Under the pieces are notes generated by a model that was not told the origin of the DNA, made no database searches, and saw only the letters and a list, made by a program, of their open reading frames with translations. From the IMG/VR virus record IMGVR_UViG_3300037421_000080, positions 42,086 through 106,085 of that record: a DNA stretch of 64,000 nt. The stretch is one strand, 5' to 3'. Numbering within the stretch: position 1 is the first letter of the stretch; each line of letters starts with the position of its first letter. A program made the translations under genes and the position numbers. Origin of the DNA: a virus (Duplodnaviria > Heunggongvirae > Uroviricota > Caudoviricetes). Shown piece after piece: positions 39,859 through 59,636 of this stretch.

Positions 39859-40803
39859 TTAGCGCCCTTCAAGTACCTCATAGCATGCTCGCACCAATCC
39901 GCCTCTGCCTGATTGGAAGAAGTCAGCCTCAAAGGAATAGAGGATTTTACAGCACCATTTCGAGTTCCGTCCCGCCTTCAAGATCTCCGTTGTAGCGCAG
40001 GCAAGCACCATCCGCCTCAGCTGCTCCGGGTCTTCTCCCTCCAGTCCTTTGAGGATCTCAGCCACAGAAGACCACGTGCTCTTCTCCCAAAGGAGCGCCT
40101 TCACTAGATCGAAGGCAGCTCTCTTGGTGTCTGTCTTCGCTATGGCATCCAGCTGATCCTGCTCCGTGGGCAGGCCGGAGATTTGGTGAAGGAGGACGAG
40201 GGCCTTGCGAGCGGAGCCTTCGGAGTTCTCGGCGATCAGAGTTGTCACTTTTTCTGGAAGAGTCAGTTGCTCCTCTTCGACTACTCTAGCTAAGATTTGA
40301 AGTATGCTCTTCTCGTTGAGGGGTTTCAGGTTGACAATTGTGCAGCGGCCCCGAACTGCCTTGATGACTTTGTCTGGATCAGTGGTAGCTAGCAGGAAGT
40401 AGACGTGAGAAGGGGTGTTCTCCAGAATATCCAAGAGGGCTTGCTGTGCGAATTGTGCTCTCGACAAAGCCTGGACTTCCTCTAGCAGCCACACTCGACA
40501 CGGCCCTGCGAAGGGCGAAAGAGCCATTCGGGATTCTATTTCCCGAACAGCGGTGATGGGCTTCTCAACCGACCCGCAGTTCACTATCGCAAAGTCAGCA
40601 TCGCTACAGCCCAGCTTCACTCTGATGATTTTGGCCAGGGTCGATTTGCCGACTCCCGTATTTCCAGCGAGCAGCAAGACGTGAGGGAGCTTCCCCTTCT
40701 TCAGCATATTGAAAAGACATTCAACTGCTTCGTTTTGGCCTACCACGTCCTTGAACTTGGTGGGTCGCCACTTGCGATACAGTTCCGTCGCTTCCTTACT
40801 CAT
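39859..40803 (-). CDS. AAA+ clamp loader subunit (DnaX/RFC-small/gp44-like)
   Basis: WRPTKFKDVVGQ..LLLAGNTGVGKSTLAKI (Walker A), clamp-loader box organisation. Confidence 0.7.
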   Translation of the reverse strand: MSKEATELYRKWRPTKFKDVVGQNEAVECLFNMLKKGKLPHVLLLAGNTGVGKSTLAKIIRVKLGCSDADFAIVNCGSVEKPITAVREIESRMALSPFAGPCRVWLLEEVQALSRAQFAQQALLDILENTPSHVYFLLATTDPDKVIKAVRGRCTIVNLKPLNEKSILQILARVVEEEQLTLPEKVTTLIAENSEGSARKALVLLHQISGLPTEQDQLDAIAKTDTKRAAFDLVKALLWEKSTWSSVAEILKGLEGEDPEQLRRMVLACATTEILKAGRNSKWCCKILYSFEADFFQSGRGGLVRACYEVLEGR

Positions 40804-42357: not shown

Positions 42358-43707
42358 CAGAAGCCAAACCCCCGAGCTAGTTCTGCTTTCTTCAAGCGCC
42401 GATGCCCCATTTCAATGTATTCCTCTGATAAGTCTATCCCGATAAACCTCCTACCGCGAGTGATCGCTACAATGCCTGCGGTTGCCGATCCCGAGAATGG
42501 ATCGCAGATAATCGCTGGCACCGGATCACTTGCGTTGCATTTGCAAGTGGGCTCCCATCCAATTGTCTTCGTGGTCGAAACGTGACGTTCGAGGTCACGA
42601 TTGCCGATTACAGAACCTAGGGTAGTTTTGGTTGAAGTTCCGGACCTTTGGAATCTTGGATCCAATTGTCCTATTTTTCTGTTTTTGAGTATCTCTTTGA
42701 TCTTGCTTTCCCTTCCCGGCCGAGTAGGAGTGCGAGTCTTTTCTAGTATTCGCTTCCACGGGGATCCACAGGCTTTGCAAATTCCTTTTTGGCTAGATCC
42801 CGCCAAAATACAGCGCAACGCAAGCTTTTTGGGGAAGGGAGCGAAGTGGGCCTCCTTCAAGCCGCCTTCATGAGACATGTGCCAGACATCACGACAGAAA
42901 CTTTTGTTTTGGTCGTTTGGATCATGCTTGGTTCCTATTCCTCCGGTAATGAACCCATTCTTTTTCAACTCGACCTTCTTGTTGTTGCCGGCACTTCTCT
43001 CCCAATTCCAGTTGCTCTTTGACCTCTCCATAATCGCCACGTGGTCGAAGTAGTATTTAGACTTCTTGGCGAATAGGAATATGTGTTCGTGGGATTTAGT
43101 ACAGCGATTCGTTACGCTCTCAGGCATGGCCCCGGCTTTGCTCCAGATGATTTCTTGGCGGAGGATCCAACCGTCAGCTTGCATTGCGAAAGCAAATCGC
43201 CAAGGAACGCCTATTAGGTTTCCCGATTGTAAATCACCGAGCAAAGGCAGATGATTGTCGTTATCCTCTCCATACCTTCTACCAACATTTCCACTTTGTT
43301 TGGTTCTTTTTGAAGAAGAATTGTAGCTGTCACCGAGATTCACCCAACATGTCCCAGTGGGATGAAGAACTCTACAAATCTCCCGAAATATCTCGACTAG
43401 CTTTTGTACGAATTCTTCGGGAGTTTCTTCTTGGCCCAGTTCAAGTGGTTTATCCGGATGATCGTCGGGGAGATAACTACGAAGACGCCAGTCAATAAGG
43501 GGGACTAGTAACGACACAATTTACACTTTCATCAGGTAAAGTTTTCAACATGTCGATAACGTCCCCCTGGAGCAACCTACTATGCTTCGTTCGGCGCTCT
43601 TTCATGATATCACCTCCTTTCTGGAGCGTAGAGTGCTTGGTCTTCCTTACGATGCCTTTGGTGCCCACACACCCTCCCGAATTTCGTGCCAAGGGGCTTT
43701 GTTCCAC
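42357..43707 (-). pseudogene. DNA N6-/N4-methyltransferase (DPPY, ParB-MTase type) interrupted by a +1/-1 frame change right after the SPPY motif
   Basis: N-piece 43492..43707 ends ..DESVNCVVTSPPY*. Continuation 42357..43517 in another frame carries ...DPFSGSATAGIVAITRGRRFIGIDLSEEY (motif I region). C5 run and TATTGAC at the junction. Confidence 0.55.
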
Positions 43708-45143
43708 CAGTTACCTTCCGGGAAGACCGGTGAGCAGTCCACCTCCGCCTTCAGAGGCACTATTATCCAGGGCCAAGCCTTCGGGAGATCCACCGTCATC
43801 ACCTGCTTAGTCAGATTGAGGAACTCCTGGGTCTCCTCCTCCGGCACGTCGCCCAGCACGCAGTCGTGCACCTGGGACACGATCAGGGACCTCATCTTCC
43901 TCTTCCGCAGTATCTTCTGGATCCGGATGATGCACCAGAGCAGGCAGTGGAATGCTGGGCCCTGCACAAGGTAGTTGAGTATCTGATTCTTGGTGTATAA
44001 TCCTTCTACCACGAACCCAGTTATCAGTCGGAAGTAGCCGTTCTTGCGGTAGTCTTCCAGTACCAGGTCGCTCTTCTCGCGATAGACGTGGAAGTCTTCC
44101 TCAAACTTCAGCTCCATCTTTCTGAGATGGTACTCGAAAGTTCCAGGCAGAGGCGGCGGGGCATCCTTCTTGGTGCTACATGGTCCTAGCTCGGAGATGC
44201 CCTTCTGGGATAGCCACTCTTTTAGTGCTATCCCCTCGACTTCCATCCCAGCATCGTCCAGGCATGCCCAGACTGCCTTGGCCATCTTCTTGTAGTACGA
44301 ACCGTAGAGCTTGGGAAACACGAATCCATCCTTGCCCTTGTACCTCGTTTTTTTAGTGATCTGACTACCCTTGCACAGGAACATCTCCGCTGCCTTGTCG
44401 CGATGGATATCCGCCTTCGGGTCAGAGGCGTAGTGAATCATCTTGGGGTCCTCCCAAATGCAGGCCGCAAGATTCCACTCATGTGAGCCAAAGTCTATTT
44501 CCGCGAATCGACAGCCAGAGCGGGGGATGAATGCTTGCCTTGTTATCTTTCCCTGATCGCTATCTCGACCGGGGCAATTCATCAAATTGGGAGATTTTGA
44601 CGAGCTCCTATAACTACGAGCTCCACCTTTCTCTTCCTCGTCCCCCCCAGTGAGATTGAAGAAGGCATGGACCAGACTATCCACTGCCTCCCGACGGATG
44701 CTCTTGAGATAGTCGCAGGAGGTCTTGTAATCACCAGCCTTCTCCATCTCACGGAGGAAGGGAATGTTCATCTTGGCGAGAGCTGCCTTGTTCACCTGCG
44801 GCCTGGCGCCCTGCTTCAGCTTCCCCTCGCTGTCGTAGCTCTTCTCGGTGTAGCTCTGGCATTTGTAACCGAGGACGTTGAAGAGCATATGTCCCAGCTG
44901 CACGGGGCTGTCCAGGTTGGCCTTCTGCCCGTACACCTTCTGCCACTTGGTGAAGATCTCGTCTTGCTTGAGCTTGTCCTGGAGACGGCGGATTTTGGAT
45001 TCGGTCCAGGATATAGCACGCTCAAGGTACTCTGTGTCGACACGGATTCCGGCTGCTTCTACCTCCGCTAGCACAATCGAGCCTTCGTGAAAGAGCTGAT
45101 ATGCGGTAGGAGAGGCGACGACTTGTTTCATTGTTTTGGCCAC
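43647..45143 (-). CDS. family A DNA polymerase, polymerase (fingers/palm) domain only
   Basis: Motif A EIDFGSHEWNLAA, motif B TRYKGKDGFVFPKLYGSYY, motif C VHDCVLGDV. Confidence 0.75.
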   Translation of the reverse strand: MAKTMKQVVASPTAYQLFHEGSIVLAEVEAAGIRVDTEYLERAISWTESKIRRLQDKLKQDEIFTKWQKVYGQKANLDSPVQLGHMLFNVLGYKCQSYTEKSYDSEGKLKQGARPQVNKAALAKMNIPFLREMEKAGDYKTSCDYLKSIRREAVDSLVHAFFNLTGGDEEEKGGARSYRSSSKSPNLMNCPGRDSDQGKITRQAFIPRSGCRFAEIDFGSHEWNLAACIWEDPKMIHYASDPKADIHRDKAAEMFLCKGSQITKKTRYKGKDGFVFPKLYGSYYKKMAKAVWACLDDAGMEVEGIALKEWLSQKGISELGPCSTKKDAPPPLPGTFEYHLRKMELKFEEDFHVYREKSDLVLEDYRKNGYFRLITGFVVEGLYTKNQILNYLVQGPAFHCLLWCIIRIQKILRKRKMRSLIVSQVHDCVLGDVPEEETQEFLNLTKQVMTVDLPKAWPWIIVPLKAEVDCSPVFPEGNWWNKAPWHEIREGVWAPKAS

Positions 45144-46835: not shown

Positions 46836-48083
46836 TCATGTTTTCGCTAGGTCTTTCGGGAAAAGGTCAATTCCCATCTTCTTCGCCTGCCTCACCCCCA
46901 CGAACCATTCCAGCAAGGCATCGGTTCCGCAGTACATCAGCATCTGATCCAGCGGCACCTCTCGTATCCGGTTATGCTCATTCGACCCACTAGACTTGAA
47001 GAAGGGCTTCATCCTCCCTTTACCCGCCACATAGCCCAGGTTCACAAATGTCTGGAACTCAAGACTCGCCACGCCCATCCTGTTGTCCAGCACATGGGCT
47101 CCAATCATCCCACACCACACCCAGTTCTTCACCCGCACTCCCTGCCGGAGCAGCCAGCGGATTTCGTGTTTGATGTTGAAGCCGATCTTGGGCACGTCGG
47201 AGCGGATGAAGTCCAGCGTCGCCTCTATCGCCCGCCCCTGCCACGGATAGGCTATCGAGGTCCGCCCGTCGCTTATGGCACAGCACAGGATGAAGGAGTC
47301 AGCTCTATCCGGCTTCAGGGGGCTGTTCTCGATGTCCCACGCCAGCGGCCTGCCGCTCTCCATCATCTCCTGGATCGCGTCTGCTGCCTCGTCGTCCTTG
47401 TAGATCCGCCTGACCTTGGATGGATAGTCGGGCAACGCTTTCCAGGGCTTCTCCATCTTCTTGCAGGCAGCCTCCAGGTGCCTCTCGAACAGGAGCTTCC
47501 TTACCTCATTCTGCTTCTTGCTGCCATAGTCGTCTCGGAGGATGTAGGAGGGATGCCAGGTGGGACACACCCAGGCATTGATCTGCTGACACGGTATCCG
47601 CCAGCCATCCCAGCGGGAAATCATGCCCACGTTGCTGCCCCAGAGCCAGCCCAGGATTGACTTCACTGCCGAGCCGCCCAGGGGGATGATTACGTTGGGC
47701 TTTAGCTCCTGGATGGTTTTTACAACATTGGGCCTGCAAAAACTGATCTCTTTATCAGTGGGGGTGCGGTTCTTGCCTTCGCGTGTCATGGGTCGGCAGA
47801 TGCAACTGTTGTATAGCCAGCAATCTCGGTCCATGTCCACATCGAATTTCTCTAACGTCTCTTTGAGGAGCTGCCCAGACTTGCCAATGAAGGGACGGTT
47901 CTGTTCAGATTCGTTGTACCCAGGGGCTTCGCCACATATAAGTATTCGTTTATACCCCTCCCCAAAGACTTTCATCTTCGGGGACTTGCAGTGACGATAG
48001 AGTCCGCACGAGCCACACTGAGCAACTAGCGGAATTGTGACCCTGCCAGAATCAGCGAGGGGCTGGGGGAAGAAGCCTCTCAT
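46836..48083 (-). CDS. DNA polymerase N-terminal module: UDG family-4-like domain fused to 3'-5' exonuclease domain
   Basis: ILICGEAPGYNESEQNRPFIGKSGQLL (UDG-4 motif) then LAWDIEN (Exo I, DxE). Ends where the pol-domain gene begins. Confidence 0.6.
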   Translation of the reverse strand: MRGFFPQPLADSGRVTIPLVAQCGSCGLYRHCKSPKMKVFGEGYKRILICGEAPGYNESEQNRPFIGKSGQLLKETLEKFDVDMDRDCWLYNSCICRPMTREGKNRTPTDKEISFCRPNVVKTIQELKPNVIIPLGGSAVKSILGWLWGSNVGMISRWDGWRIPCQQINAWVCPTWHPSYILRDDYGSKKQNEVRKLLFERHLEAACKKMEKPWKALPDYPSKVRRIYKDDEAADAIQEMMESGRPLAWDIENSPLKPDRADSFILCCAISDGRTSIAYPWQGRAIEATLDFIRSDVPKIGFNIKHEIRWLLRQGVRVKNWVWCGMIGAHVLDNRMGVASLEFQTFVNLGYVAGKGRMKPFFKSSGSNEHNRIREVPLDQMLMYCGTDALLEWFVGVRQAKKMGIDLFPKDLAKT

Positions 48084-48658: not shown

Positions 48659-48865
48659 TCACTCCCCGATATGCTCGAACTCCATCAGCATCCGCCTGAT
48701 CTCCATCTCGCTCTTCTCAGCTTCCTTGAGCAGCCAGCGGGCGGAGTCGGAAAGGAACTTCACCTCGGCGCAAATAGAGCAGTATCGGTTCTTACAGCGG
48801 AAATCATCGAAGATCAGGCTCTCCAGATAGTCCCTCTCATCATCGGTCATCCGATTCCTCCTCAT
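48659..48865 (-). CDS. small hypothetical protein (CxxC)
   Basis: 68 aa. Confidence 0.35.
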   Translation of the reverse strand: MRRNRMTDDERDYLESLIFDDFRCKNRYCSICAEVKFLSDSARWLLKEAEKSEMEIRRMLMEFEHIGE

Positions 48866-49946
48866 TCTCTTGTTCCGGCTCCTCTGTCTGGGCTCTTTCC
48901 TCTTCCTCAGCCTGCTCCTCAGGTCGTGTCAGCACGGCCACCCAGGCGAACTTCCCCGCTCCGTTCACCTTGATCTTGTCCTGGCTGATCTCGCATTGGG
49001 GATACTCCCGAGCCAGCTTGATCAGCAGGTTCGGAGCAATCACGAAGTCTATCGGAGGACCGGCGTACTTGGCTCGCTTAGGCTCTGTATGGGAGCCTGT
49101 GATCCCAATGCCCTCCACCACTACTCGATCCGGTCGCAGCTTCACCGTGACGTAGTTGAACTCGCCGTTCTCCGAGGAGAAGATATTGGCTCGCTCCGTC
49201 GCATCTACCAGCTTGTTGGGCAGATGGCTCGCAACCCCTTTCATTGAGAACATCTCGGTCAGCTCGGGGAAGTCGTCGATGAACCGTCGGCAGGAGAGCA
49301 TGACACCTTCTGCACTCCGGAAGTGCAGCCAGCCGTCCGTCACGGCCATCTCCACAGGGGCTATCTTATCCAGCTCCGAGATGGACTTGCTCCGCACCAG
49401 CACCGATTCCTCTACGCCCGTCTTCAGGGTCCAGCGACAAGCCTGGTAGTTATCGCAGGTCTCTACCCACTTGGGATGGACGTGGACACAGGTCAGACCT
49501 GCACCGTGCTTCTCGTCGGGCCGGGCGCACTGGCTGACGACTCGGATAGCCTCCGCGAACTCGGGGTGGAGGGGTTTCCACTCCTGCGGCTTGTCCACAG
49601 CCCGGACCAGATCGAGGAGGGAGGTCTCCTGCTCTAGCAATAGGGAAGACTTCTTCCCGCCCTTGCCGTTGAGGATCAGCTTATCCTTCCTCATTTCCAG
49701 CGTCAATTCAGCATCCTCCAGGCGTCGCAGGAGCTCTGATAGGGGACGGGCCGAGACAGCTCCCGTGAACTCCGCTGAGAGCATGCTAGGTCCTCTACAG
49801 GCCGTTTCCTCGTTGCAGGTGTAGACCTTCCCACCTCGGAAGACGTAGCACGAGCTCTGCTGGGTCTTGTCCTTGTTAGTTAGGCCGGGCTGCATCACTT
49901 CGAGATGGCGGAGGAACTCCTCGCGGTTCACTTTCAGAGTGGTCAT
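48840..49946 (-). CDS. dnaN: DnaN-like beta sliding clamp with acidic C-terminal tail
   Basis: N-terminus MTTLKVNREEFLRHLEVMQPGL resembles the DnaN start. ..EMAVTDGWLHFRS corresponds to the ..ATDGHRLA motif. Three-domain length. Confidence 0.55.
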   Translation of the reverse strand: MTTLKVNREEFLRHLEVMQPGLTNKDKTQQSSCYVFRGGKVYTCNEETACRGPSMLSAEFTGAVSARPLSELLRRLEDAELTLEMRKDKLILNGKGGKKSSLLLEQETSLLDLVRAVDKPQEWKPLHPEFAEAIRVVSQCARPDEKHGAGLTCVHVHPKWVETCDNYQACRWTLKTGVEESVLVRSKSISELDKIAPVEMAVTDGWLHFRSAEGVMLSCRRFIDDFPELTEMFSMKGVASHLPNKLVDATERANIFSSENGEFNYVTVKLRPDRVVVEGIGITGSHTEPKRAKYAGPPIDFVIAPNLLIKLAREYPQCEISQDKIKVNGAGKFAWVAVLTRPEEQAEEEERAQTEEPEQENEEESDDR

Positions 49947-50106
49947 CAGCTTTCCTCAAGTCGGTTCTTTCGCTGCGGTTGATCGTAACGCTTCGGGGAG
50001 CCTGGATGCCTATCCGTATCTTGTTGCGGTCGATGTCCGTGATGGTGACAACGATGTTGTCGCCAATGCAGATGGATTCACCAAGTTTGCGAGTTAGGAC
50101 CAGCAT
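49876..50106 (-). CDS. csrA: carbon storage regulator CsrA homolog
   Basis: MLVLTRKLGESICIGDNIVVTITDIDRNKIRIGIQAPRSVTINRSE is near-consensus CsrA. Confidence 0.8.
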   Translation of the reverse strand: MLVLTRKLGESICIGDNIVVTITDIDRNKIRIGIQAPRSVTINRSERTDLRKADDHSESEPRGVPPPSRSDAARPN

Positions 50107-50134
50107 GTCTTCTCCTTCCGTGGTTAAAAGCTCC

Positions 50135-50734
50135 CTATCTACTATCGGGGATAGGAGTATACCGCCAGCGGGAGGTCAGCTGCCAGGACCTGTTGTTTTT
50201 CTGGGGAGAGTACTCAATCTTGATAGGCACAGTAGCGAGCAAACCGAGGAGGTTCCCAACCAGAAAGCCCTTCCCTTCCAGGAGGACAAGAGGCTTCTTC
50301 CAGTACTCCCCGGAGCTAAAGCGCCAGACAGCCTCGGGATGGCGCTCCTTGAGTGTAAGAAAGGCTTCGGCCTCCACGAATACTCGCAGATCGCCGCTTC
50401 GGAGGGAGACCAGCTGGTTAAACTCGTCCCCACCTACGAACTTGGCTCGCTCTACCTCGCAGGTGAGTCTTCTGGGGAGAATATCCCCCAAGCTCATTGG
50501 AGTGGCCTTGGCATACTCTGTGTCGGAGATTAGAGCATCCCAGTGCTTCTGTTCTATAGAGCTACGTTCCTTGTTTGACAGGCGAGTCAGGAGCATGTCG
50601 TCAGAGAGGAAGCCTGTCTCCTGGGCTGTCTTGAGCAGGCGACAGCGCATCTCACTGGGCTTGGTGAGAATGGACTTCAACAGTTCCTCGAAGGACTTGG
50701 CCTTCTGGGGAATTGAGTTGGCAACTTTGATCAA
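50135..50734 (-). CDS. hypothetical protein
   Basis: 199 aa. Confidence 0.45.
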   Translation of the reverse strand: MIKVANSIPQKAKSFEELLKSILTKPSEMRCRLLKTAQETGFLSDDMLLTRLSNKERSSIEQKHWDALISDTEYAKATPMSLGDILPRRLTCEVERAKFVGGDEFNQLVSLRSGDLRVFVEAEAFLTLKERHPEAVWRFSSGEYWKKPLVLLEGKGFLVGNLLGLLATVPIKIEYSPQKNNRSWQLTSRWRYTPIPDSR

Positions 50735-50980
50735 TTAGCACACCTGTTCTTGGAGTGTTCCCCAGCACTCACCGCAGAGTAGCCAGCAGTTCGAGCAGCG
50801 GAAGGCATTCATCTCAGGGGAGGAGGCGCCTACTCCAACTTCTGTCCCAGTGTTCGGGCAGATCTGGCTGACAGGAACCGGATTCTGTAGCTGGCGAGTG
50901 AATGGCTTGTGGCAGCGGCAGCAGGTGGTTTGCTCAGCCATTGAGTAGCTCCTTGATCTGACTTCTGATCTCTTTTCCAT
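50735..50980 (-). CDS. small Cys-rich protein
   Basis: CCRCHK..C...CSNCWLLCGEC. Confidence 0.35.
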   Translation of the reverse strand: MEKRSEVRSRSYSMAEQTTCCRCHKPFTRQLQNPVPVSQICPNTGTEVGVGASSPEMNAFRCSNCWLLCGECWGTLQEQVC

Positions 50981-51458
50981 CTATTGGTTTCAATTTGAAT
51001 TTCTGGGCGATTCTCTTGATCTTGCTCTCCCGACCCTTGAGCCAGATCTCATTCTGGTGACTGTTTCGCTTCTTCCTTCTCCTCGCTAGCTCCTCTGGAG
51101 AGCAATCCAGCAGGAACAACTTTAGCTTTACACACTCGATGTTCTGGACTACATCAAGAAAGCTCTGACCGAAGAGACGATCCCCCTCGAACAATACCGT
51201 CCAATCAGGGTTGTGTTTGGCCCAATGATGGAGAACCTTCACTGCATCGGGCTGAACAGACATAGATAGCCGATCCGTCCCAGCGAAGACATTCTCTCCC
51301 CGGTAGTCGCCCAGGACGAACACCTTGGCATCTTCTATGCGGCCGTAGACTAGGGAGCCGATCTTCTCATGCTTGATAGGGCCGAGGAGCTCGATGAGAG
51401 AACGCATCAGCGTGGTCTTGCCGCAGCCAGGATTGCCTCCGATGCCGATCACGATCAT
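50934..51458 (-). CDS. P-loop kinase-like protein (Walker A GGNPGCGKTT; nucleotide/DNA-base kinase candidate)
   Basis: 174 aa, N-terminal P-loop, small kinase-fold size. First gene of the enzyme cassette. Confidence 0.55.
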   Translation of the reverse strand: MIVIGIGGNPGCGKTTLMRSLIELLGPIKHEKIGSLVYGRIEDAKVFVLGDYRGENVFAGTDRLSMSVQPDAVKVLHHWAKHNPDWTVLFEGDRLFGQSFLDVVQNIECVKLKLFLLDCSPEELARRRKKRNSHQNEIWLKGRESKIKRIAQKFKLKPIDGKEIRSQIKELLNG

Positions 51459-52390
51459 CTGGTGAGATCCCCCATCCGTATTTTCTTGGCTCGGGCTAGC
51501 TCCTCAGCAGCAGAGCCGCAGGAAACCATGCCTTGTCTGTAATAACAAACAAGGCTGATCCGTTCAAAGGCTCCCTCTATCCCAATCAGTGGGGTGTTCC
51601 CATGCCACTCATGGACATCCGCCAAGAGCAGACTTCGTGTCCTCATATCCACCGCTACTCGGTACTTCGGAAAGCAGAGGTAACAGCCAGAGTAGTGCCC
51701 TGCCCGGAGAGCCGTCATAACCCCGAAGCCCTCGGTCAGATCACCCTTGTCTTTATGCAAAGCTGTGACCCAATTCTTGTTCACTGTGATTGTGGTGAAG
51801 GCGGTCTTATGAATCACGAAGTCTGGAGAGGTCTGCTTCACTACCTTCAGCTGGGCAGCATAGCGGCCTGGAACGTTCTTCTTGAATGCCTCATCTATTG
51901 CTCGGATCAAGGGCATGGCAGCTTGGAACTTCTCCGGTTGGTATAGATTGAAGGCTGTCAGGCGACAGTAGGGAATGCGAGGATAGCGATCATAGAAGCC
52001 GATGATGCCACTATGGACCGCTTGAGCGTAGTTCGTGTTGGAGACAGTGCCATCTTGTTTCATCGGTCGAAGTCTGGTCCCATCCATGACAGCAGCCTTT
52101 TTGGCTCGATTCCCTTTCCGCTCAGAGACCTTCTCTGGAATGATCCCAGCAGCCATCCCTCTGTTCTCACTGGTGCTTGCTGCTTTCCGTAGACCGGGGA
52201 AGGCAGCCTTGCAAGCAGGAGCAGGGAGAATGTTATGGAGATGGATGAGGAGAACATCACCATTGGGCTTGAGGACTTTCACATCGTCCTCTGCGATGAG
52301 CCGATCGTAGTGAGATTCGTCGAGGAAGGTGCCTGCCAGTTTATCTATTTCCTCATCAGGCAGAGCGTGATTCAACTTTATCGTTTTCAT
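51455..52390 (-). CDS. hypothetical protein with HxD...H...R pattern (possible 2OG-Fe(II)/TET-JBP-like dioxygenase)
   Basis: ALHKDKGD (HxD) then HEWHGNTP and a distal R (RISLVCYYR). Weak, by-eye only. Confidence 0.3.
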   Translation of the reverse strand: MKTIKLNHALPDEEIDKLAGTFLDESHYDRLIAEDDVKVLKPNGDVLLIHLHNILPAPACKAAFPGLRKAASTSENRGMAAGIIPEKVSERKGNRAKKAAVMDGTRLRPMKQDGTVSNTNYAQAVHSGIIGFYDRYPRIPYCRLTAFNLYQPEKFQAAMPLIRAIDEAFKKNVPGRYAAQLKVVKQTSPDFVIHKTAFTTITVNKNWVTALHKDKGDLTEGFGVMTALRAGHYSGCYLCFPKYRVAVDMRTRSLLLADVHEWHGNTPLIGIEGAFERISLVCYYRQGMVSCGSAAEELARAKKIRMGDLTR

Positions 52391-53051
52391 TCTTCAATTC
52401 CCGATATGCTCGCTTCAACACTTTGAACACAGTGTCTGTCAACGTCTTGGTGCCATAGTGCCCACCCAAGTATTTTACTATCTTCTCGAAGGCCCCAATA
52501 TTGTCAGACGAAAGGAACAGCTGGATCATGCGCACATGAGAGGGCTGTAGATCAGGTAATGACTCTGGAGTAAGCTCCCCATCTCCCTCTACATCCAGTT
52601 CCAGATCATCGGGGTTCAGTCCTCCCTCAGCTACCTTGGAGAAGAGCGAGGCTAGTGCCTTGTTCCCCGTTGTAACATCCCTGATGAGGCTAGCGAACTT
52701 CCCCTTGTTCGTTGTAGCCATTGTACCTACAGAGTCATAGGAGGCGAGTAGCTTCTTGGCCTCTTCCTCTGTCACGTCCAGGACTGCGACGTGTACCTTC
52801 TGGTTGGGAGGGTACTCCTCCTGGCGTAGATGGCCGTCGATCAGCATGAATGTTCCGTCAGGCAGCTCGCGAACGATCTGGATACCTGCAATACCGATTT
52901 CGGAGAGGAGGCCACGGAAGGCTTCTCGCTGATCTTCCGGATGTTCTCTCCAGTTCCATGGGCAGGCTCTCAGCTCTCCCGCCTTGACGCGGACCACCTT
53001 CTTGATGCGATCCCGAATCATCATTTTGTGTTCCTTTGGAATGGGAGGCAT
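52356..53051 (-). CDS. ParB/Srx-like nuclease-domain protein
   Basis: FMLIDGHLRQEE ParB N-domain motif. Confidence 0.5.
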   Translation of the reverse strand: MPPIPKEHKMMIRDRIKKVVRVKAGELRACPWNWREHPEDQREAFRGLLSEIGIAGIQIVRELPDGTFMLIDGHLRQEEYPPNQKVHVAVLDVTEEEAKKLLASYDSVGTMATTNKGKFASLIRDVTTGNKALASLFSKVAEGGLNPDDLELDVEGDGELTPESLPDLQPSHVRMIQLFLSSDNIGAFEKIVKYLGGHYGTKTLTDTVFKVLKRAYRELKNENDKVESRSA

Positions 53052-53869
53052 TTACCTAGTTTGTCCGCCAAAGGCCCCCATCCAACTAAAGCATGTTTCA
53101 GCTCTCTAGTATCTATCCCAATGGGGTAGTGGCCGTGTAGATATGATTTCATCTTACAAAGTATGGTCTCTGCTTCCTGTGTTCCACAAGGCCGATCAAA
53201 ACTGGGGGGGGCTAATCTGTGTTGGAATTGTTTATTGAGCCAGCCCACAGTTTCTTTGAGAACCCATTCAGGTTTAACTATTTTTGCTCCCTCTGCTGGC
53301 TCTTTGTAGAAGTTCAGGTCGTCAATGCTGAACTCAATCGAGACACCCATCACTCGCTCTAGCAAATCTCCCATCTTGAACGCAATCCAGGGGCCGTAGA
53401 GAGGCCAGCCTAGTATCCACTTCTTTAGTGTAACAAAATCCCCCGAATCCTCCAAGGACTTTATAGCTAGGCCGGGAATCGGGAACTTCTTTCTCATCCA
53501 ATTGATAGAATGTTGTGAAGCATTTCCTCGGAAGTGCCGTCTCTCTCTTCCCCTCGGCCACTTCTCATCTTGGAACTTCTGGACAGTGTCCCAAAAGTCC
53601 TCAGAATCCGCGATTTTGGAGGCGACACCAGCATGGTAGCACATGCTATAGGCCAATAGCCAGCGACGGAGTAGCTTAGGCCCGAGCTCCGCCTTGTAGA
53701 GGATGACATACACTGGATCCAGGTCTAGTGTATCCAGCAAGGCGTTGCCAAATTCCAATACTGTCATGCGCTTGTTTTCAAAGAACATCAAGGAGCTTCC
53801 TGGCTGCAAATCCGGCAGCAATGGTGCCAAGCTTCCCAGCACCAGTGACAGCCCAGGTTCTGGGTCCAA
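53021..53869 (-). CDS. hypothetical enzyme-like protein in cassette (aGPT-pyrophosphorylase-like role is conjecture)
   Basis: 282 aa, no motif recognised. Confidence 0.45.
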   Translation of the reverse strand: MDPEPGLSLVLGSLAPLLPDLQPGSSLMFFENKRMTVLEFGNALLDTLDLDPVYVILYKAELGPKLLRRWLLAYSMCYHAGVASKIADSEDFWDTVQKFQDEKWPRGRERRHFRGNASQHSINWMRKKFPIPGLAIKSLEDSGDFVTLKKWILGWPLYGPWIAFKMGDLLERVMGVSIEFSIDDLNFYKEPAEGAKIVKPEWVLKETVGWLNKQFQHRLAPPSFDRPCGTQEAETILCKMKSYLHGHYPIGIDTRELKHALVGWGPLADKLGKCLPFQRNTK

Positions 53870-54602
53870 TTGATTCCATCAGGCAGGGATCACTGCCATT
53901 CTTCTTGCAGTAAGGGCGGAGGCCTAGCTTGGTTTTCAACAGCGGTAGGGGAGCAGGCAATGCTTCTTGACAGCGATCAAGGCACTGCTTTGTTCTCACT
54001 TGGGTCCAGTTGGCATGGAGGAGTGCGGAGCCATCCCCTATCCAAATCTCCTGAGGGCCTTGCTGGTGGGCAACGATCTGCTTGTACGGAGCCCAGGGCT
54101 TTATAAATGGTGAAATCTGGCCTGACAGCCTGAATGATACACCCTGCTTGGGCGTAGCTTTGATCGCTTTGGCCAGCTCTCCAATCCAGCATCCAGTGGC
54201 TAGAACCAACAGCCTTCCTTGGTACTCCGAGCCATCGGTGCAATACACAACTGGGTGTTCCTCTGATGTTTTGATCTTGCTTGCCTTGGCCTTTGTCTTG
54301 GGAATAGAAACTACCTTGTCTGTATCTACTCTCCAGACAGTTTCTTGGATCTGCTTGGGCCAGATGGTGAACTTCCTCTCAATCAATCCCCAGACATCAT
54401 CCAGCAGCTCCATTGCTGATTCAGACTCTTCTTTCTGCATGCTTGCAAACCAAGATGGCTTGAGGTGCCCTCCTGAAGGTCCAGTACCTGCCATGGGGCG
54501 ACCGTCGTCTAGCAACAATACCTTGGCTCTACTCTTTCTCAAGGCCAGTGTAATGGTGGAACCAATGATCCCCCCACCAACCACGATAGCATCGTACATC
54601 AT
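53778..54602 (-). CDS. FAD-dependent oxidoreductase (DAO/glycine-oxidase-like, short)
   Basis: N-terminal YDAIVVGGGIIGSTITLAL dinucleotide-binding motif. Confidence 0.65.
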   Translation of the reverse strand: MMYDAIVVGGGIIGSTITLALRKSRAKVLLLDDGRPMAGTGPSGGHLKPSWFASMQKEESESAMELLDDVWGLIERKFTIWPKQIQETVWRVDTDKVVSIPKTKAKASKIKTSEEHPVVYCTDGSEYQGRLLVLATGCWIGELAKAIKATPKQGVSFRLSGQISPFIKPWAPYKQIVAHQQGPQEIWIGDGSALLHANWTQVRTKQCLDRCQEALPAPLPLLKTKLGLRPYCKKNGSDPCLMESIGPRTWAVTGAGKLGTIAAGFAARKLLDVL

Positions 54603-54607
54603 TATTC

Positions 54608-55774
54608 TCAGATGAAGCGGTCGAACTCGCCCACTGATACTATCGGCATCCCAGCCTCCTGCTTCCTCTTGATCTCGATGGCTTCCAGATTTGTATTGTG
54701 CCTCAAGCAGTGGAAGTTGCAGTGTTTGGAAGGATCAAGATACTCCATCACCCGCTGACGCAGTGCACCATCCCAGGCCTCCTTGAAACTCTGGTTGACT
54801 ATACCCCCTACCTTCATCCTCTCCTTGCCACGCCAGTAGGGGCAGACGAATATCCCGGTTGGAGTAACAGTTGTTCTCAGATGGGTTGATGGGCATTTGC
54901 AATAGTCTTTGGATTGAGGCACCTCAACTCCATCCAGGGAGGGTTGTAGGTTGATCGCACGGATCACCTTGAACTTGTCTGTCTCCAGAGAGTCTAGGGA
55001 GGCAACTTCCCGAGCAGCCTGCTCCATCAAGTGCTTTGGGTGCTTCACCAAAGCATGATCCACGCCTTCCCGAAACTGGTAGGAGGGCTTGACCTCAAAG
55101 TAGTCGCACCCGATCTCCCTGGCCAACAGGGCTGCGGCATAGATCTCCCCGATGTTGCTCTCAATATCCCTGCCATCTGCCGGAGTCTGAATCAAGAAGG
55201 AGAAGCCCAGCTTGCCCTTCTTCTTGGCAGCCAGCAACCTCATATTGCTGACAACTTTGTCAAACTTGCTCTTCCCAGTTCCTCCCTTGGTTGGCCTGAG
55301 TACGCTAAACATCCGCTCCGTAGCAGCATCCATCGAGACACGAGTCCACTGTGCATACTCGGAGATAGGCCCCAAATATCTGTCGATGAAGCTGCCATTT
55401 GTTGTGATCCCGATGTGCACATCATTCTTCCCCAGCAGCTCGATAAGCTCTCCGGACTTTCGGTGGGCCAGGGGCTCACCTCCACCAATCAAAATAACTG
55501 CTTTCACTCCGCAGTCAATGAATTCTTGTCCTAGCTTCATCAAGCGTTCATCGGAGAAGCGGTTACCTAGAGCGATCACATCTTCGCTAATGCAACCAGG
55601 GCAGGCCAAATCACAAATCGCTGTTGGGTCTAGCTCCACAACAAACGGTGAATCGTTTCCCTCTTCCCAATCTGTATTGCTGATTCTCTCCAAGACTGGG
55701 AGCTGGTAGAGCTTGTTATTGAGCTTCATGATATCAGACATTTTGCTCTTTCTCCTCCTTTGATTGTCAGCCAC
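54608..55774 (-). CDS. radical SAM enzyme (with C-terminal Cys-rich auxiliary region)
   Basis: CDLACPGC (CxxxCxxC) and VILIGGGEPL glycine-rich SAM motif. C-terminal CKCP...CPYW...CNFHC cysteines. Confidence 0.8.
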   Translation of the reverse strand: MADNQRRRKSKMSDIMKLNNKLYQLPVLERISNTDWEEGNDSPFVVELDPTAICDLACPGCISEDVIALGNRFSDERLMKLGQEFIDCGVKAVILIGGGEPLAHRKSGELIELLGKNDVHIGITTNGSFIDRYLGPISEYAQWTRVSMDAATERMFSVLRPTKGGTGKSKFDKVVSNMRLLAAKKKGKLGFSFLIQTPADGRDIESNIGEIYAAALLAREIGCDYFEVKPSYQFREGVDHALVKHPKHLMEQAAREVASLDSLETDKFKVIRAINLQPSLDGVEVPQSKDYCKCPSTHLRTTVTPTGIFVCPYWRGKERMKVGGIVNQSFKEAWDGALRQRVMEYLDPSKHCNFHCLRHNTNLEAIEIKRKQEAGMPIVSVGEFDRFI

Positions 55775-56735: not shown

Positions 56736-58805
56736 TTACTTGTTCCGAGGGGCATTGGGCTTCAGGCCCCACTTGCCATCCTCTTCAACAAGCCACTCCC
56801 CGAGGCCATCATTCCTCTGGGCCCAGAACTTGAGATGGCGTACCACTCGCGCTGGCTTGAGTCCGCACTCCTCGGCGATCTTCTGGGGGGTTCGCTTGTT
56901 ACCAGACAACGCCGCATTGATCAGGGCCGGATCCTTTCCAAGCTGGCACCCAAAGCGATCCCGTTCAGCGCTTTCCTTTTTCTCTTTAGGAGCCTTCTTC
57001 ACCTTCGGCTCCTTGGCAACCTTGGCGGGCCGCTCCTTCTTGCCCTTGACGGCCTTCCCGTTGCTCTCCCCGTTGGAAGTAGCATACTGGATCGACCGCC
57101 CCTCCCCTGCTGCCTTGCCGATGGCGACCATGAGCTTGTAGTCGTCACTGCCCTCTTCGGGCTGGGTCCAGTCCTCGATGAGGGCCTGGAAATCCTTGCC
57201 GTCGTTCAGCTTGGCCAGCAGTCGCTCGGGAGACATCTCCTCGGCAGCAGCCACATTGCCAATCGCCCGGAGCATCCGTCGAACACTTTTCTCCTGAACC
57301 TGCATCGTATCCTCACTTTCGATGAAATCCGCGACTGGTGTATTATCGGTCGCAGAGAGCCTTGGAACCAGGCGGCTGAGCCCATTGCTCTCCGCCAAAT
57401 TGACAACTTGCTTTGCGTTGCTTTCACTTTCCTCGCGGCCCATCGTCTCCCGCAGGTGGGCCTCAGCGACCTCGAATGCTCTGGCGAGGGATTTGAGGTC
57501 GCTCTTGTTGACAATCCGCTCGCTGGTGGCCATCTTCGCCATCACCGTGAACCGGCTTTCCGGTCCAGTCACGCGAGCGACCCGATAGCGGCCGCACGTG
57601 CTACGCCAGATATCATATTGAGCGTGCCCATTTTGGAAAGTATCCTGTTCCGGAATCTCACTCCAGGACAGCAGGGCAGGGGGCGGATTGACGCCCTGCT
57701 TGATCTGGCGCTTGGCGTTGAGGATTGCCTTCTCCAGGCGCTGGGGAGTGAGCCATGCCCTGGCAACCCCGGACTCAGACAGGATAACGTCCGCATCGGT
57801 CCGCTCCAGGACAGCACCACCGTGCGACCAGACCAGAGCATCCACTTTCTCCTGGATCTCGCGGCGGGTGAACTTGTTTAGCTCGCTGTCGAAGTTGGGT
57901 CTGCCTTCTATCTCGCGATCGTCAAGATCGTATTCGTCGTCTTCTTCGTCCTCGACAAAATCCGCTTCAGCCTTCTCCAATGCTTCCCGGATCTGCCCGT
58001 CCTCGACATCGTCGGCGGGATCGTTGCCGTCCACGAAGTCTGGCTCCCCCTTTGACACAGCCGCTCGATCGGCGGAATGAAGCCCACAATCTTCGATAGT
58101 TTCATCGGAATCTTCGACGAAATCAGGCCCGTCTCTCTCAACAAATTTATCAGCAAGTTCGTTTAGGGATTGCTCTTTGATGATTACATCAGCAATATCC
58201 CCTAATTCGCCATCGCATAGATCATCGACTTTGGGGATGGTAGTAAGATCTGAAAAAGTCTTGCCAATCGCTTCTTCCAATTCAGCCATTAGCGGCTGGT
58301 CTTCCATCTCGCTAGGGTCGAGTTTGGAATCGGGCGTGCGGTTGGCGAAGTCTTCCAGCATCCCCTTGTCCGGATCAAGCTGGGTCAATGGCTTCTCGAA
58401 GCTCATGCTAACCGCGACAGGAGCGTCGTCGGCTAGCGCCTCTTCAATAGCCGCCTGCTTCTGCTCCTCGGTTAGCGGGACAGGGATACTTTCCTGCTCA
58501 TCGCCGGGATACGGAGGGCCAACTCGAGTGGGTGTCTCAATCACGTAGGTCTGCCCTACGTCACCACACATGTCTGGCAAATGCCCCGCGTCCTTCGCCA
58601 GGATCTCCTGGGCCTTGGCCTTGCACTCTGGCACGCTGCCCCGGAATACCTCCGTGCCGTTCTCCAGCAGCCGGTAGCCATCTCGCACCCGGCGGATCTC
58701 CCAGGGGCCAGAGCGATAGCCTCGCTCAAAATCAGGGTGCTTCTCCCATACGATCTCAGTCATCGGAATCACTTCCTTTCTAACTTTGCCGTTGTGAAAA
58801 TCCAA
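56736..58805 (-). CDS. large acidic protein (689 aa) with repeated PDFVED-type acidic motifs and a Lys-rich segment
   Basis: ..GPDFVEDSDE..EPDFVDGNDP..EADFVEDEEDDEYDLDD... C-terminal half contains a KKERPAKVAKEPKVKKAPKEKKE basic patch. Confidence 0.55.
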   Translation of the reverse strand: MDFHNGKVRKEVIPMTEIVWEKHPDFERGYRSGPWEIRRVRDGYRLLENGTEVFRGSVPECKAKAQEILAKDAGHLPDMCGDVGQTYVIETPTRVGPPYPGDEQESIPVPLTEEQKQAAIEEALADDAPVAVSMSFEKPLTQLDPDKGMLEDFANRTPDSKLDPSEMEDQPLMAELEEAIGKTFSDLTTIPKVDDLCDGELGDIADVIIKEQSLNELADKFVERDGPDFVEDSDETIEDCGLHSADRAAVSKGEPDFVDGNDPADDVEDGQIREALEKAEADFVEDEEDDEYDLDDREIEGRPNFDSELNKFTRREIQEKVDALVWSHGGAVLERTDADVILSESGVARAWLTPQRLEKAILNAKRQIKQGVNPPPALLSWSEIPEQDTFQNGHAQYDIWRSTCGRYRVARVTGPESRFTVMAKMATSERIVNKSDLKSLARAFEVAEAHLRETMGREESESNAKQVVNLAESNGLSRLVPRLSATDNTPVADFIESEDTMQVQEKSVRRMLRAIGNVAAAEEMSPERLLAKLNDGKDFQALIEDWTQPEEGSDDYKLMVAIGKAAGEGRSIQYATSNGESNGKAVKGKKERPAKVAKEPKVKKAPKEKKESAERDRFGCQLGKDPALINAALSGNKRTPQKIAEECGLKPARVVRHLKFWAQRNDGLGEWLVEEDGKWGLKPNAPRNK

Positions 58806-58986
58806 AACAACCCAGGGTCTCCGGTGAGGCTAGTTCCTGAATCGAAGCGCACTTTTCGTCATCAAGTGCCTCTTCCAAAAACAACTGAGCGACCTCCTCG
58901 TCCTTGAAGGGACCATAGACCTTCGCCCCTCCTTGTTTCTTGCTGATAGCCACATTCACCACAAATTGCTTGCTCATCGGAATCAC
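58780..58986 (-). CDS. small hypothetical protein
   Basis: 68 aa. Confidence 0.35.
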   Translation of the reverse strand: MIPMSKQFVVNVAISKKQGGAKVYGPFKDEEVAQLFLEEALDDEKCASIQELASPETLGCFGFSQRQS

Positions 58987-59019
58987 TTCCTTTCGTTCGA
59001 GAGCGATTTCAAGTTTAGC

Positions 59020-59187
59020 CTACTCCAGAAACGTGACTTTCCCAGGCTGCGGGACGGTGCAGCGATATGCTTTGCCGCACTTCTTGCAGCCGTGGTTCCT
59101 CGGCCGCTCCCGCAGCTTGGCGAACCGGTGGGTCACTTTGACCGTCTCGCCACAACAGGGGGTTCTGCCTTCGATCGGGTTCTTCAT
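59020..59187 (-). CDS. small zinc-ribbon protein (55 aa; below the ORF-track cutoff)
   Basis: Codon-by-codon manual translation MKNPIEGRTPCCGETVKVTHRFAKLRERPRNHGCKKCGKAYRCTVPQPGKVTFLE. Replaces the Gly/Arg-rich 59015..59437 shadow ORF. Confidence 0.35.
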   Translation of the reverse strand: MKNPIEGRTPCCGETVKVTHRFAKLRERPRNHGCKKCGKAYRCTVPQPGKVTFLE

Positions 59188-59223
59188 TGGACATCTCCTG
59201 TTTGATTATCGGGTGAATGTTCA

Positions 59224-59559: not shown

Positions 59560-59588
59560 CGGGTTCACTCCCTTTTGGGCGACCTTTC

Positions 59589-59636
59589 TTGTCTCCACTA
59601 TCTTATTCGCTGGCCGCTTCGGGGCATTTGATCGTG
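59589..59636 (-). promoter_or_regulatory. conserved upstream element GATCAAATGC-N12-AGCGAATAAGATAGTG (copy 1)
   Basis: Near-identical copy at 60096-60145. Both lie about 30-80 nt upstream of minus-strand start codons. Confidence 0.4.

What the first reader, a model, noticed from the sequence alone, without database searches (positions are those of the whole stretch)
49876..50106. Phage-encoded CsrA
Near-consensus CsrA sequence plus a 20-aa acidic/Pro extension. It overlaps the clamp gene start by about 70 nt. Phage CsrA could hijack host post-transcriptional regulation or be titrated by the nearby repeat/small-RNA island.
Basis: partly seen in the sequence, partly recalled or inferred. Interest (0 to 1): 0.5.

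Follow-up and report, generated by a model that had tools for sequence, protein, structure and literature searches.

The report
Phage CsrA gene beside sliding clamp
A large uncultivated phage carries a genuine copy of the bacterial RNA-binding translational regulator CsrA inside its DNA-replication gene cluster; phage CsrA genes are already known, so this is an ordinary new member whose only oddities are a long disordered tail that reads 71 bases into the next gene and that gene callers miss it.

Summary
ORF 49876-50106 (minus strand, 76 aa) is a CsrA-family protein: Pfam PF02599 E 1.4e-21, PDB CsrA/RsmE matches, and an AlphaFold core that superposes on CsrA structures. It has a strong Shine-Dalgarno sequence and overlaps by 71 nt a downstream gene that I confirmed as a DnaN-like beta clamp.

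The tail is about 15 residues longer than in relatives. It is Pro/Ser-rich but not net acidic, is predicted disordered, and is encoded in the clamp's conserved 5' end, so it is probably a by-product of read-through.

The setting is a phage replication module (helicase, csrA, clamp, UDG-exonuclease, PolA, clamp loader, UvsX) beside DNA-hypermodification genes. In the related phage clade, 12 of 59 loci with enough flank carry csrA. It is always co-oriented with the clamp, and directly upstream of it in the window's nearest relative.

No CsrB-like sponge RNA, GGA island or FliW was found.

Phage CsrA is already documented: a PHROG family, 81 GenBank phage records, Sobrero and Valverde 2020, and a 2025 knock-down phenotype. 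Verdict: a new member of a known kind, of modest interest. The likely role is translational repression at GGA-containing ribosome-binding sites. Whether it targets host or phage mRNAs is unresolved.

The parts
49876..50106 (-). csrA gene. 76-aa CsrA-family RNA-binding protein: conserved core at residues 1-46, divergent and probably disordered tail at residues 47-76.
   Evidence: ORF. Pfam PF02599 E 1.4e-21. PHROG 9500. PDB CsrA/RsmE sequence hits. AF2 core pLDDT about 90 and tail below 60. Top 15 Foldseek hits are all CsrA/RsmA/RsmE, rmsd 1.5-2.8 A.
50112..50119 (-). Shine-Dalgarno sequence of csrA (GGAAGGAG), 5 nt before the ATG. The leader carries GGA motifs at -28, -13 and -9, a possible autoregulatory site (inferred).
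   Evidence: Sequence read directly. GGA positions.
49876..49946 (-). 71-nt same-strand overlap. The last 23 codons of csrA (tail DHSESEPRGVPPPSRSDAARPN) are read in the +1 frame of the first 24 codons of the clamp gene.
   Evidence: The clamp N-terminus is conserved in its family (R8, L12, L15, G21, L22 nearly invariant). In syntenic relatives csrA ends 4 or 7 nt inside the clamp gene or 52 nt before it.
49950..49957 (-). Shine-Dalgarno sequence of the clamp gene (GAGGAAAG), lying inside the csrA coding sequence at codons 50-53.
   Evidence: Sequence read directly.
48840..49946 (-). DnaN-like beta sliding clamp gene (368 aa), immediately downstream and probably co-transcribed.
   Evidence: 114 homologues, a few with PF00712/PF02768 hits. 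The family profile hits PDB beta clamps at E 3e-7, colinear.
50135..50734 (-). Upstream co-directional gene of unknown function (199 aa). It ends 28 nt before csrA.
   Evidence: no Pfam or PHROG hit. Called as a gene in contigs L021 and L023.

Best explanation
This is a functional phage-borne csrA gene.

**Shown.** It encodes a CsrA-family protein with the complete beta-strand core and the residues critical for RNA binding (L4, R44). It has its own strong ribosome-binding site. It lies in a long co-directional array of replication and DNA-modification genes, with no promoter- or terminator-like site found nearby.

**Inferred.**
- The protein dimerises like other CsrA proteins.
- It is made early or mid infection together with the replication proteins.
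- It binds GGA motifs in or next to Shine-Dalgarno sequences and blocks ribosome loading.
- I take the main targets to be host mRNAs of the Csr regulon type, which would push the infected cell towards a state that favours phage replication.
- Its C-terminus is unrelated to the FliW-binding tails of its closest bacterial homologues, so it would probably escape a FliW-type host antagonist.
- The extra roughly 15-18 C-terminal residues are a disordered passenger. They arose because the csrA stop codon lies 71 nt inside the conserved 5' end of the clamp gene, and they are not a functional module.
For: - **Family membership:** Pfam and PHROG hits, PDB sequence hits, AF2 model and Foldseek.
- **Critical residues:** L4 and R44 are conserved. 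Their importance is described in the review PMC7652899.
- **Expression signals:** Shine-Dalgarno GGAAGGAG 5 nt before the ATG. No promoter- or terminator-like site on the coding strand around the gene.
- **Real sequence:** the same sequence occurs in three other assemblies.
- **Retention in the clade:** csrA is present in 12 of 59 loci with at least 3 kb on both sides of the clamp, always on the clamp strand. It is present in 5 of 7 members of the window's own sub-clade, always upstream of the clamp, and is directly adjacent in the nearest relative L025.
- **Other phages:** csrA lies next to a UvsX-like gene in L005 and near a PolA-exonuclease gene in L006/L007.
- **Phenotype elsewhere:** knock-down of the csrA homologue of phage PTXU04 reduces plaque size (PMC11879866).
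- **Tail:** pLDDT below 60. It is longer than in all related phage CsrAs of the clamp family. It is encoded over conserved clamp codons.
[quoted passage not shown] The 'ENxAAS...' tail of the closest bacterial homologues is absent here.
Against: - No target is identified and the host is unknown. The only hints are phage-like contigs binned into Planctomycetes and Bdellovibrionales MAGs.
- About two thirds of the phage's own genes carry GGA in their ribosome-binding region, so the protein should also bind phage mRNAs. Host specificity is an assumption.
- Position 47, hydrophobic in almost all homologues, is Arg here. The usual C-terminal helix is replaced, and AF2 gives only a 3-residue helix. 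RNA affinity or dimer stability could therefore be altered.
- csrA is absent from most relatives, so it is dispensable for this phage type.
Confidence: 0.5

Rival explanations
1. RegA-like self-regulation. The CsrA mainly represses translation of the phage's own early and replication mRNAs (clamp, its own message and others) to time the switch away from early gene expression. It would be a non-homologous counterpart of T4 RegA, which is also a small RNA-binding translational repressor encoded inside the replication gene cluster and which represses the clamp and clamp-loader genes.
For: - T4 regA lies immediately after gene 62 in the core replication cluster of all T4-like phages. It represses about 30 mRNAs, including genes 44 and 45 (PMC3014915).
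- Here csrA sits directly upstream of the clamp gene, as it does in L025, L103 and L074/L075.
- The clamp Shine-Dalgarno sequence GAGGAAAG contains GGA and lies inside csrA.
- The csrA leader has three GGA motifs.
- Clamp initiation regions in csrA-positive relatives carry more GGA motifs than in csrA-negative ones: mean 2.45 against 1.32, one-sided Mann-Whitney p = 0.002, n = 11 and 59.
Against: - The GGA difference is partly background. csrA-positive loci are GGA-richer overall (1.49 against 1.29 per 54 nt) and in all initiation regions (1.62 against 1.32).
- The loci are phylogenetically clustered, so they are not independent.
- The window's own clamp initiation region has a single GGA and no hairpin that presents it.
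- GGA-bearing ribosome-binding sites are equally common in structural genes (12 of 18) and replication-side genes (29 of 46).
- The consensus site is not enriched.
- csrA is often several kb from the clamp or downstream of it.
Confidence: 0.25
2. Decaying or neutral passenger. The gene was captured from a host or another mobile element and has lost its proper C-terminus by a frameshift or loss of its stop codon. It now has little or no function.
For: - The divergence starts exactly at residue 47.
- The protein is the longest in its phage clade, and a 71-nt overlap is unusual.
- The -1 frame of the 3' end reads ...QRKNRLEES and stops at TGATGA, overlapping the clamp ATG. This is the classic coupled stop-start arrangement.
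- csrA is missing from most relatives.
Against: - The 46-residue core is intact and near consensus, and the Shine-Dalgarno sequence is strong.
- The sequence is identical in four assemblies.
- The in-frame tail resembles the non-helical, acidic and proline-containing tails of other CsrA homologues, including phage ones (P0009, P0065, P0081, L005, L074). The -1 frame peptide resembles none of them.
- L109, which encodes the closest such homologue (P0009), shares two other genes with this phage.
- From my own knowledge, not tested here: E. coli CsrA truncated near residue 50 keeps partial activity.
Confidence: 0.1
3. Decoy or titration circuit. The phage CsrA is controlled by, or soaks up, a GGA-rich CsrB-like sponge RNA encoded nearby, or it acts by soaking up the host's sponge RNAs.
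For: This is how CsrA is controlled in Gammaproteobacteria. The window does contain non-coding and repeat regions.
Against: - No CsrB, CsrC or Rsm sRNA family hit at E<=5 in the 64 kb.
- No intergenic GGA cluster. The top peak is coding.
- CANGGAYG occurs at chance level.
- The non-coding island at 25976-26840 has about 3 GGA per 150 nt against a strand mean of 4.0.
- Only 64 kb of a genome of at least 137 kb was examined, and titration of host sRNAs cannot be tested here.
Confidence: 0.05

Closest known systems
Bacterial CsrA/RsmA/RsmE (Pfam PF02599; PDB 1Y00, 2JPP, 1VPZ)
   Same: The core is the same length. It is 43-54% identical to solved structures over 46 residues, with L4, R6, R44 and E46 conserved. 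The predicted core superposes at 1.5-1.7 A on most of the solved chains.
   Different: The C-terminal helix motif (E-I/V-Y-x-R-I) is replaced from residue 47, with Arg where a hydrophobic residue is normal. It has a 30-residue low-confidence tail. It is encoded by a phage, in a replication module, and overlaps the next gene by 71 nt.
Previously reported phage-encoded CsrA homologues: PHROG 9500/5527; RsmM-type genes of temperate Pseudomonas aeruginosa phages; Vibrio and Burkholderia phages; E. coli phage PTXU04 gp28
   Same: All are small CsrA-domain proteins carried by a tailed phage. There are 81 GenBank phage records and 20 IMG/VR loci. The phenomenon is described in PMC7366521 (30 of 2517 phage genomes) and a knock-down phenotype in PMC11879866.
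   Different: Identity to isolated-phage proteins is at most 54%. Here the gene lies inside the replication module next to the clamp of a large uncultivated phage. I did not examine where csrA sits in the isolated phages. It also has the longest tail among its phage relatives.
FliW-partnered CsrA (Bacillus subtilis, Campylobacter; PDB 5DMB)
   Same: The overall length is similar (76 against 74-83 aa). The closest full-length database homologues are of this type.
   Different: The conserved tail of those homologues (…ENxAAS…L..IA..fRK) is absent. No FliW domain was found among the window proteins scanned.
Bacteriophage T4 RegA translational repressor (functional analogue only)
   Same: Both are small RNA-binding proteins encoded within the replication gene cluster beside the clamp or clamp-loader genes. 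Both act, or would act, at translation initiation regions.
   Different: There is no homology and the fold is different. RegA sites are A+U-rich and unstructured and include the AUG. CsrA sites are GGA motifs, often in hairpin loops. Regulation of phage genes by this CsrA is not shown.
CsrA paralogues on other mobile elements (Legionella ICE CsrT; plasmid csrA such as pMBA19a)
   Same: A mobile element carries its own CsrA-family regulator.
   Different: The element type and the gene neighbourhood differ.

Membership tests
CsrA/RsmA family (PF02599) | Sequence match to the family model above the curated threshold | tested here: met
   76.6 bits against a gathering score of 27, E 1.4e-21, profile positions 1-46 of 53. 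PDB CsrA/RsmE hits at about 4e-11.
CsrA/RsmA family (PF02599) | RNA-binding residues of strands beta1 and beta5, above all L4 and R44 | tested here: met
   L2, L4, R6 and R44 are all present and invariant in alignments A1 and A4. Their role is described in PMC7652899.
CsrA/RsmA family (PF02599) | CsrA fold: five beta strands followed by a C-terminal helix | tested here: inconclusive
   The core is modelled at pLDDT about 90 and superposes on CsrA chains at 1.5-1.7 A over 46 residues. The monomer model shows only three strands by DSSP and a 3-residue helix. The helix sequence motif is not conserved.
CsrA/RsmA family (PF02599) | Domain-swapped homodimer | not testable with these tools
   Only monomer prediction was available.
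CsrA/RsmA family (PF02599) | Binding of GGA-containing RNA and translational regulation | not testable with these tools
   Needs EMSA, CLIP or reporter assays.
FliW-antagonised CsrA subfamily | Extended C-terminus with the conserved FliW-contact region | tested here: not met
   The tail is unrelated to the ENxAAS…-type tails of the closest bacterial homologues and of B. subtilis CsrA.
FliW-antagonised CsrA subfamily | A fliW gene in the same genome or neighbourhood | tested here: not met
   No FliW domain in the 38 window proteins scanned against Pfam. The rest of the genome and the host were not seen.
Csr system with sponge sRNA (CsrB/CsrC/RsmX-Z type) | A non-coding RNA with many GGA motifs in hairpin loops | tested here: not met
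   No Rfam Csr/Rsm family hit at E<=5. No intergenic GGA cluster. CANGGAYG occurs at chance level.
Phage-encoded CsrA-like regulators (PHROG 9500) | Match to the PHROG model and location in a phage genome | tested here: met
   PHROG 9500 at E 1.5e-15 over 58 of 65 profile positions. Neighbours are clamp loader, UvsX-like, PolA, HNH and Tet_JBP genes. 170 IMG/VR contigs share the clamp.
T4 RegA family | Homology to RegA | not tested
   No direct comparison with RegA was run. The Pfam scan at E<=0.01 and the structure search of this protein returned only CsrA. The resemblance is positional and functional only.

The most novel reading that the evidence does not exclude
In this clade of large uncultivated phages, CsrA has been recruited as a RegA-like translational timer of the replication module. 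It would be encoded just upstream of the sliding-clamp gene and would repress the clamp and its own message at GGA-containing ribosome-binding sites. The 71-nt read-through over the clamp start would add a direct translational link between the two genes. This would be convergent evolution of a T4 RegA-type circuit from a bacterial global regulator.
Probability: 0.15. Interest if true: 0.6.

Novelty: new member of a known kind. Interest (0 to 1): 0.3.

Why it matters
Phage-borne CsrA genes are known but barely studied. As of 2025 their role in the phage life cycle had been tested only once, by a knock-down that shrank plaques.

This locus adds three modest points:
- In one widespread environmental phage clade, csrA is a recurrent, co-oriented accessory gene of the replication module rather than a lysogenic-conversion gene. 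This suggests a role during lytic replication.
- The position next to the clamp gene invites a testable comparison with T4 RegA.
- Standard gene callers missed the gene in all three public contigs that carry it, because of the 71-nt overlap. Phage csrA genes of this kind may therefore be under-counted in protein catalogues.

None of this changes what is known about how CsrA works.

Tried and rejected
1. **CsrB-like sponge.** Rfam at gathering threshold and at E<=5, a GGA and ANGGA density scan, and CANGGAYG against shuffles all found nothing. The best GGA peak is the coiled-coil part of a coding ORF.
2. **RNA structure presenting GGA at the csrA or clamp start.** Fold z-scores were +0.2, +0.3 and -0.7, so nothing special.
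3. **Promoter or terminator next to csrA.** None was found on the coding strand around the gene.
4. **Close relatives for a selection test on the overlap.** The only contigs with the same clamp are 100% identical in DNA, and the next relatives have about 45% identical clamps. No dN/dS test was possible.
5. **Frameshift origin of the tail.** The -1 frame ends at TGATGA on the clamp ATG. However, its peptide resembles no CsrA tail, while the in-frame tail resembles other proline/acidic CsrA tails. I therefore did not adopt it. There is no canonical slippery heptamer, so I reject programmed frameshifting (my own reading of the sequence).
6. **Difference in GGA-type ribosome-binding sites between structural and replication genes.** None: 12 of 18 against 29 of 46.
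7. **Host identification.** The only hits are two MAG contigs (Planctomycetes, Bdellovibrionales) and one Planctomycetaceae-labelled homologue. These are probably mis-binned phage contigs.
8. **Searches that found nothing or could not run.** A megablast of the region against GenBank phages gave no match. The single-protein scan of IMG/VR with the clamp gave no relative. The 41-sequence clamp alignment was too diverse for the locus search, so a 9-sequence one was used.

Full report
**1. The observation**

The minus-strand ORF 49876..50106 exists as described. It starts at ATG and encodes 76 aa:

MLVLTRKLGESICIGDNIVVTITDIDRNKIRIGIQAPRSVTINRSERTDLRKADDHSESEPRGVPPPSRSDAARPN

- **Start signals.** The ORF is preceded by the Shine-Dalgarno sequence GGAAGGAG (50119-50112), 5 nt before the ATG. 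It begins 28 nt after the stop of the upstream co-directional ORF 50135-50734.
- **Family.** It matches Pfam CsrA PF02599 at E 1.4e-21 (76.6 bits against a threshold of 27) over residues 1-46. It matches PHROG 9500 'CsrA-like regulator' at 1.5e-15. In the PDB it matches E. coli CsrA 1Y00 (3.5e-11), RsmE 2JPP (4e-11) and other CsrA chains.
- **Structure.** An AlphaFold2 model built on 49 homologues has pLDDT of about 90 for residues 11-40 and below 60 from residue 50 on. Its top 15 Foldseek matches in the PDB are all CsrA, RsmA or RsmE chains, mostly at 1.5-1.7 A over 46 residues.
- **RNA-binding residues.** M1, L2, L4, R6, E10, G33, P37, R44 and E46 are invariant in the alignment. L4 and R44 are the residues singled out as critical for RNA binding (review PMC7652899).

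The gene is real and is a CsrA-family member.

**2. The tail and the overlap**

After E46 the usual helix (E-I/V-Y-x-R-I-Q) is replaced by RTDLRKADDHSESEPRGVPPPSRSDAARPN.

- **Composition.** The tail has 6 acidic and 6 basic residues, so its net charge is 0, plus 5 Pro and 4 Ser. It is proline/serine-rich and mixed-charge rather than acidic.
- **The downstream gene.** ORF 48840..49946 starts at an ATG preceded by GAGGAAAG. Its N-terminus MTTLKVNREEFLRHLEVMQPGL aligns from residue 1 with the family consensus MxxRVNREELLxxLESVQPGLS. The 71-nt overlap is therefore genuine.
- **Clamp identity.** The ORF has no direct Pfam or PHROG hit. A profile of 41 family members hits bacterial beta sliding clamps in the PDB at E 3e-7, colinearly. 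A few homologues carry PF00712 or PF02768.
- **Comparison with relatives.** CsrA proteins of related phages are 53-67 aa. Where csrA is directly upstream of the clamp, it ends 4 or 7 nt inside the clamp gene or 52 nt before it.
- **Reading.** The last 15-18 residues here are a lineage-specific extension, read in the +1 frame of clamp codons that are themselves conserved. I read them as a tolerated, disordered passenger (inference).
- **Frameshift alternative.** The -1 frame of the csrA 3' end stops at TGATGA on the clamp ATG, which could hint at an old frameshift. But the in-frame tail resembles the proline/acidic tails of other CsrA homologues (P0009, P0065, P0081, L005, L074), and the -1 peptide resembles none.

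**3. The genome around it**

- **Replication side (minus strand).** Genes are co-directional: DnaB-like helicase (60986-62389), a 689-aa protein, radical SAM, FAD oxidoreductase, ADDT amino-acid:DNA transferase, Tet/JBP dioxygenase, P-loop nucleotide kinase, csrA, clamp, UDG-exonuclease (46836-48083), PolA (43647-45143), N6/N4 methylase, clamp loader (39859-40803), tRNA-Thr, UvsX-like recombinase, PDDEXK nuclease and a Ro60 orthologue.
- **Other side (plus strand, 1-22.5 kb).** This part holds large ORFs with almost no database matches, presumably structural.
- **Public copies.** An identical clamp protein is on record from contigs of up to 137 kb. Three short public contigs are 100% identical in DNA to the window.
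- **Missed by gene callers.** In all three contigs the gene callers left csrA uncalled. In two of them they called a 52-aa antisense ORF instead. This explains why the exact protein is absent from a 5.8-billion-protein catalogue whose best hits are only 45-74% identical.

**4. Relatives**

- **The clamp family.** The clamp defines a large family: 114 catalogue proteins and 170 IMG/VR viral contigs, of which 80 were fetched.
- **Frequency of csrA.** A CsrA HMM scan of all fetched loci found csrA within 10 kb of the clamp in 12 of the 80 IMG/VR loci and in 2 of 4 other relatives, always on the clamp strand. Among loci with at least 3 kb on both sides, 12 of 59 have it.
- **Sub-clade pattern.** On a rough neighbour-joining clamp tree, the window groups with L025, which has csrA with a 4-nt overlap onto the clamp. 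In that sub-clade 5 of 7 members carry csrA upstream of the clamp.
- **Gene order.** The order helicase ... csrA - clamp - UDG-exonuclease - PolA - clamp loader is colinear across these loci.
- **Other phages.** In unrelated IMG/VR phages, csrA lies next to a UvsX-like gene (L005) or near a PolA-exonuclease gene (L006/L007).

In these environmental phages csrA is therefore a recurrent but dispensable accessory gene of the replication module.

**5. Tests of the proposed sponge**

- No Csr/Rsm sRNA family is found at Rfam gathering thresholds or at E<=5.
- The RsmA-type site CANGGAYG occurs 20 times against 20.6 expected.
- The strongest GGA cluster (30651-30800) is the Glu/Arg-rich coiled coil of a coding ORF.
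- The repeats at 58760-60141 are repeated promoter/RBS-like units before small genes.
- The 860-nt non-coding stretch at 25976-26840 has below-average GGA density. It gives sub-threshold hits to a Y-RNA-like family beside the Ro60 gene.
- No FliW domain was found in the proteins scanned.

**6. How it probably works**

- **Shown.** The CsrA core is intact, the gene has a good ribosome-binding site, it is co-oriented with early/replication genes, and it is retained in a sub-clade.
- **Inferred from the family's established mechanism.** A dimer binds GGA motifs at or near Shine-Dalgarno sequences and blocks ribosome loading.
- **Host-directed reading.** This is the usual proposal and I give it the most weight. 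The tail does not match FliW-type tails, so the protein would likely escape a FliW antagonist (inference).
- **Phage-directed, RegA-like reading.** T4 regA lies in the replication cluster and represses the clamp and clamp-loader genes (PMC3014915). Clamp leaders of csrA-positive relatives carry more GGA motifs (2.45 against 1.32, p = 0.002). This hint is confounded by overall GGA richness and by phylogenetic clustering. The window's own clamp leader has one GGA and no presenting hairpin. GGA-type ribosome-binding sites are equally common on both halves of the window.

**7. Comparison with what is known, and verdict**

Phage-encoded CsrA is documented in several ways:
- PHROG families exist for it.
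- 81 GenBank phage records encode a homologue, annotated as carbon storage regulator, Bci or translational regulator.
- A survey found csrA in 30 of 2517 phage genomes (PMC7366521).
- A CRISPRi-ART knock-down of the PTXU04 homologue reduced plaque size (PMC11879866).

This locus is a divergent new member, at most 54% identical to isolated-phage proteins. Its distinguishing features are a replication-module context, an unusually long overprinted tail, and invisibility to gene callers. Interest is modest. The RegA-like reading is the most novel one left open.

Noticed in passing
window 24275-25975 (-) and 25976-26840 (-): A Ro60 orthologue (TROVE plus Ro60 vWA domains, E 4e-48 and 6e-62) follows about 860 nt of non-coding sequence. 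That stretch gives sub-threshold hits to the Y-RNA-like family RF01656 (26715-26779, 32.1 bits; 26046-26108) and contains tRNA-like T-arm fragments. It looks like a phage Ro60 / Y-RNA (YrlA-like) module.
   Followed up: partly
window 50934-55774 (-): A cluster of P-loop nucleotide kinase, Tet/JBP dioxygenase, ADDT amino-acid:DNA transferase, FAD oxidoreductase (DAO) and radical SAM genes lies just upstream of csrA. It resembles known thymidine hypermodification pathways. Relatives carry 7-deazaguanine genes (QueC, FolE, PTPS) at the same place instead.
   Followed up: no
L021 3841-4071, L022 19-249, L023 901-1131 (identical to window 49876-50106): Public gene calls on all three contigs omit csrA. 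Two of them call a 52-aa antisense ORF there instead. The 71-nt overlap with the clamp appears to defeat the gene callers, so the protein is missing from the 5.8-billion-protein catalogue.
   Followed up: yes
window 58760-60141 (-): Repeated units precede several small minus-strand ORFs. One is 21 nt (GAAAGGAAGTGATTCCGATGA: an RBS plus start codon, with the GGAA/TTCC arms able to pair). Another is 66 nt (…GATCAAATGC…GCGAATAAGATAGTG…). They look like repeated promoter and leader cassettes of an early-gene region.
   Followed up: partly
window 13758-18737 (+): A 1659-aa ORF contains at least seven copies of a repeat of about 86 aa (DNA period 255-261 nt, 60-87% identical). It is probably an Ig-like repeat fibre or decoration protein. 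It has no PHROG hit and was not scanned against Pfam.
   Followed up: no
L006/L007, L016-L019, L074, L005 (IMG/VR CsrA homologues): Many viral CsrA homologues end in short, strongly acidic or proline-containing tails instead of the usual helix, for example …EELLNQDDDEEE with net charge down to -10. The mean tail charge over 36 viral sequences is -1.4. This may be a recurring feature of phage CsrAs.
   Followed up: partly
window 48840-48925 (-), C-terminus of the clamp: The clamp ends in an acidic extension of about 28 residues (RPEEQAEEEERAQTEEPEQENEEESDDR). Its relatives, mostly 333-365 aa against 368 aa here, are too short to carry most of it. The extension overlaps the next ORF (48659-48865) by 26 nt.
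   Followed up: no
L111 (MHYA01000143.1) and L112 (CAZTYU010000008.1): The only GTDB-genome hits for the clamp family are 41-47 kb contigs in a Planctomycetes MAG and a Bdellovibrionales MAG. One catalogue homologue is labelled Planctomycetaceae. These are weak host hints or mis-binned phage contigs.
   Followed up: no
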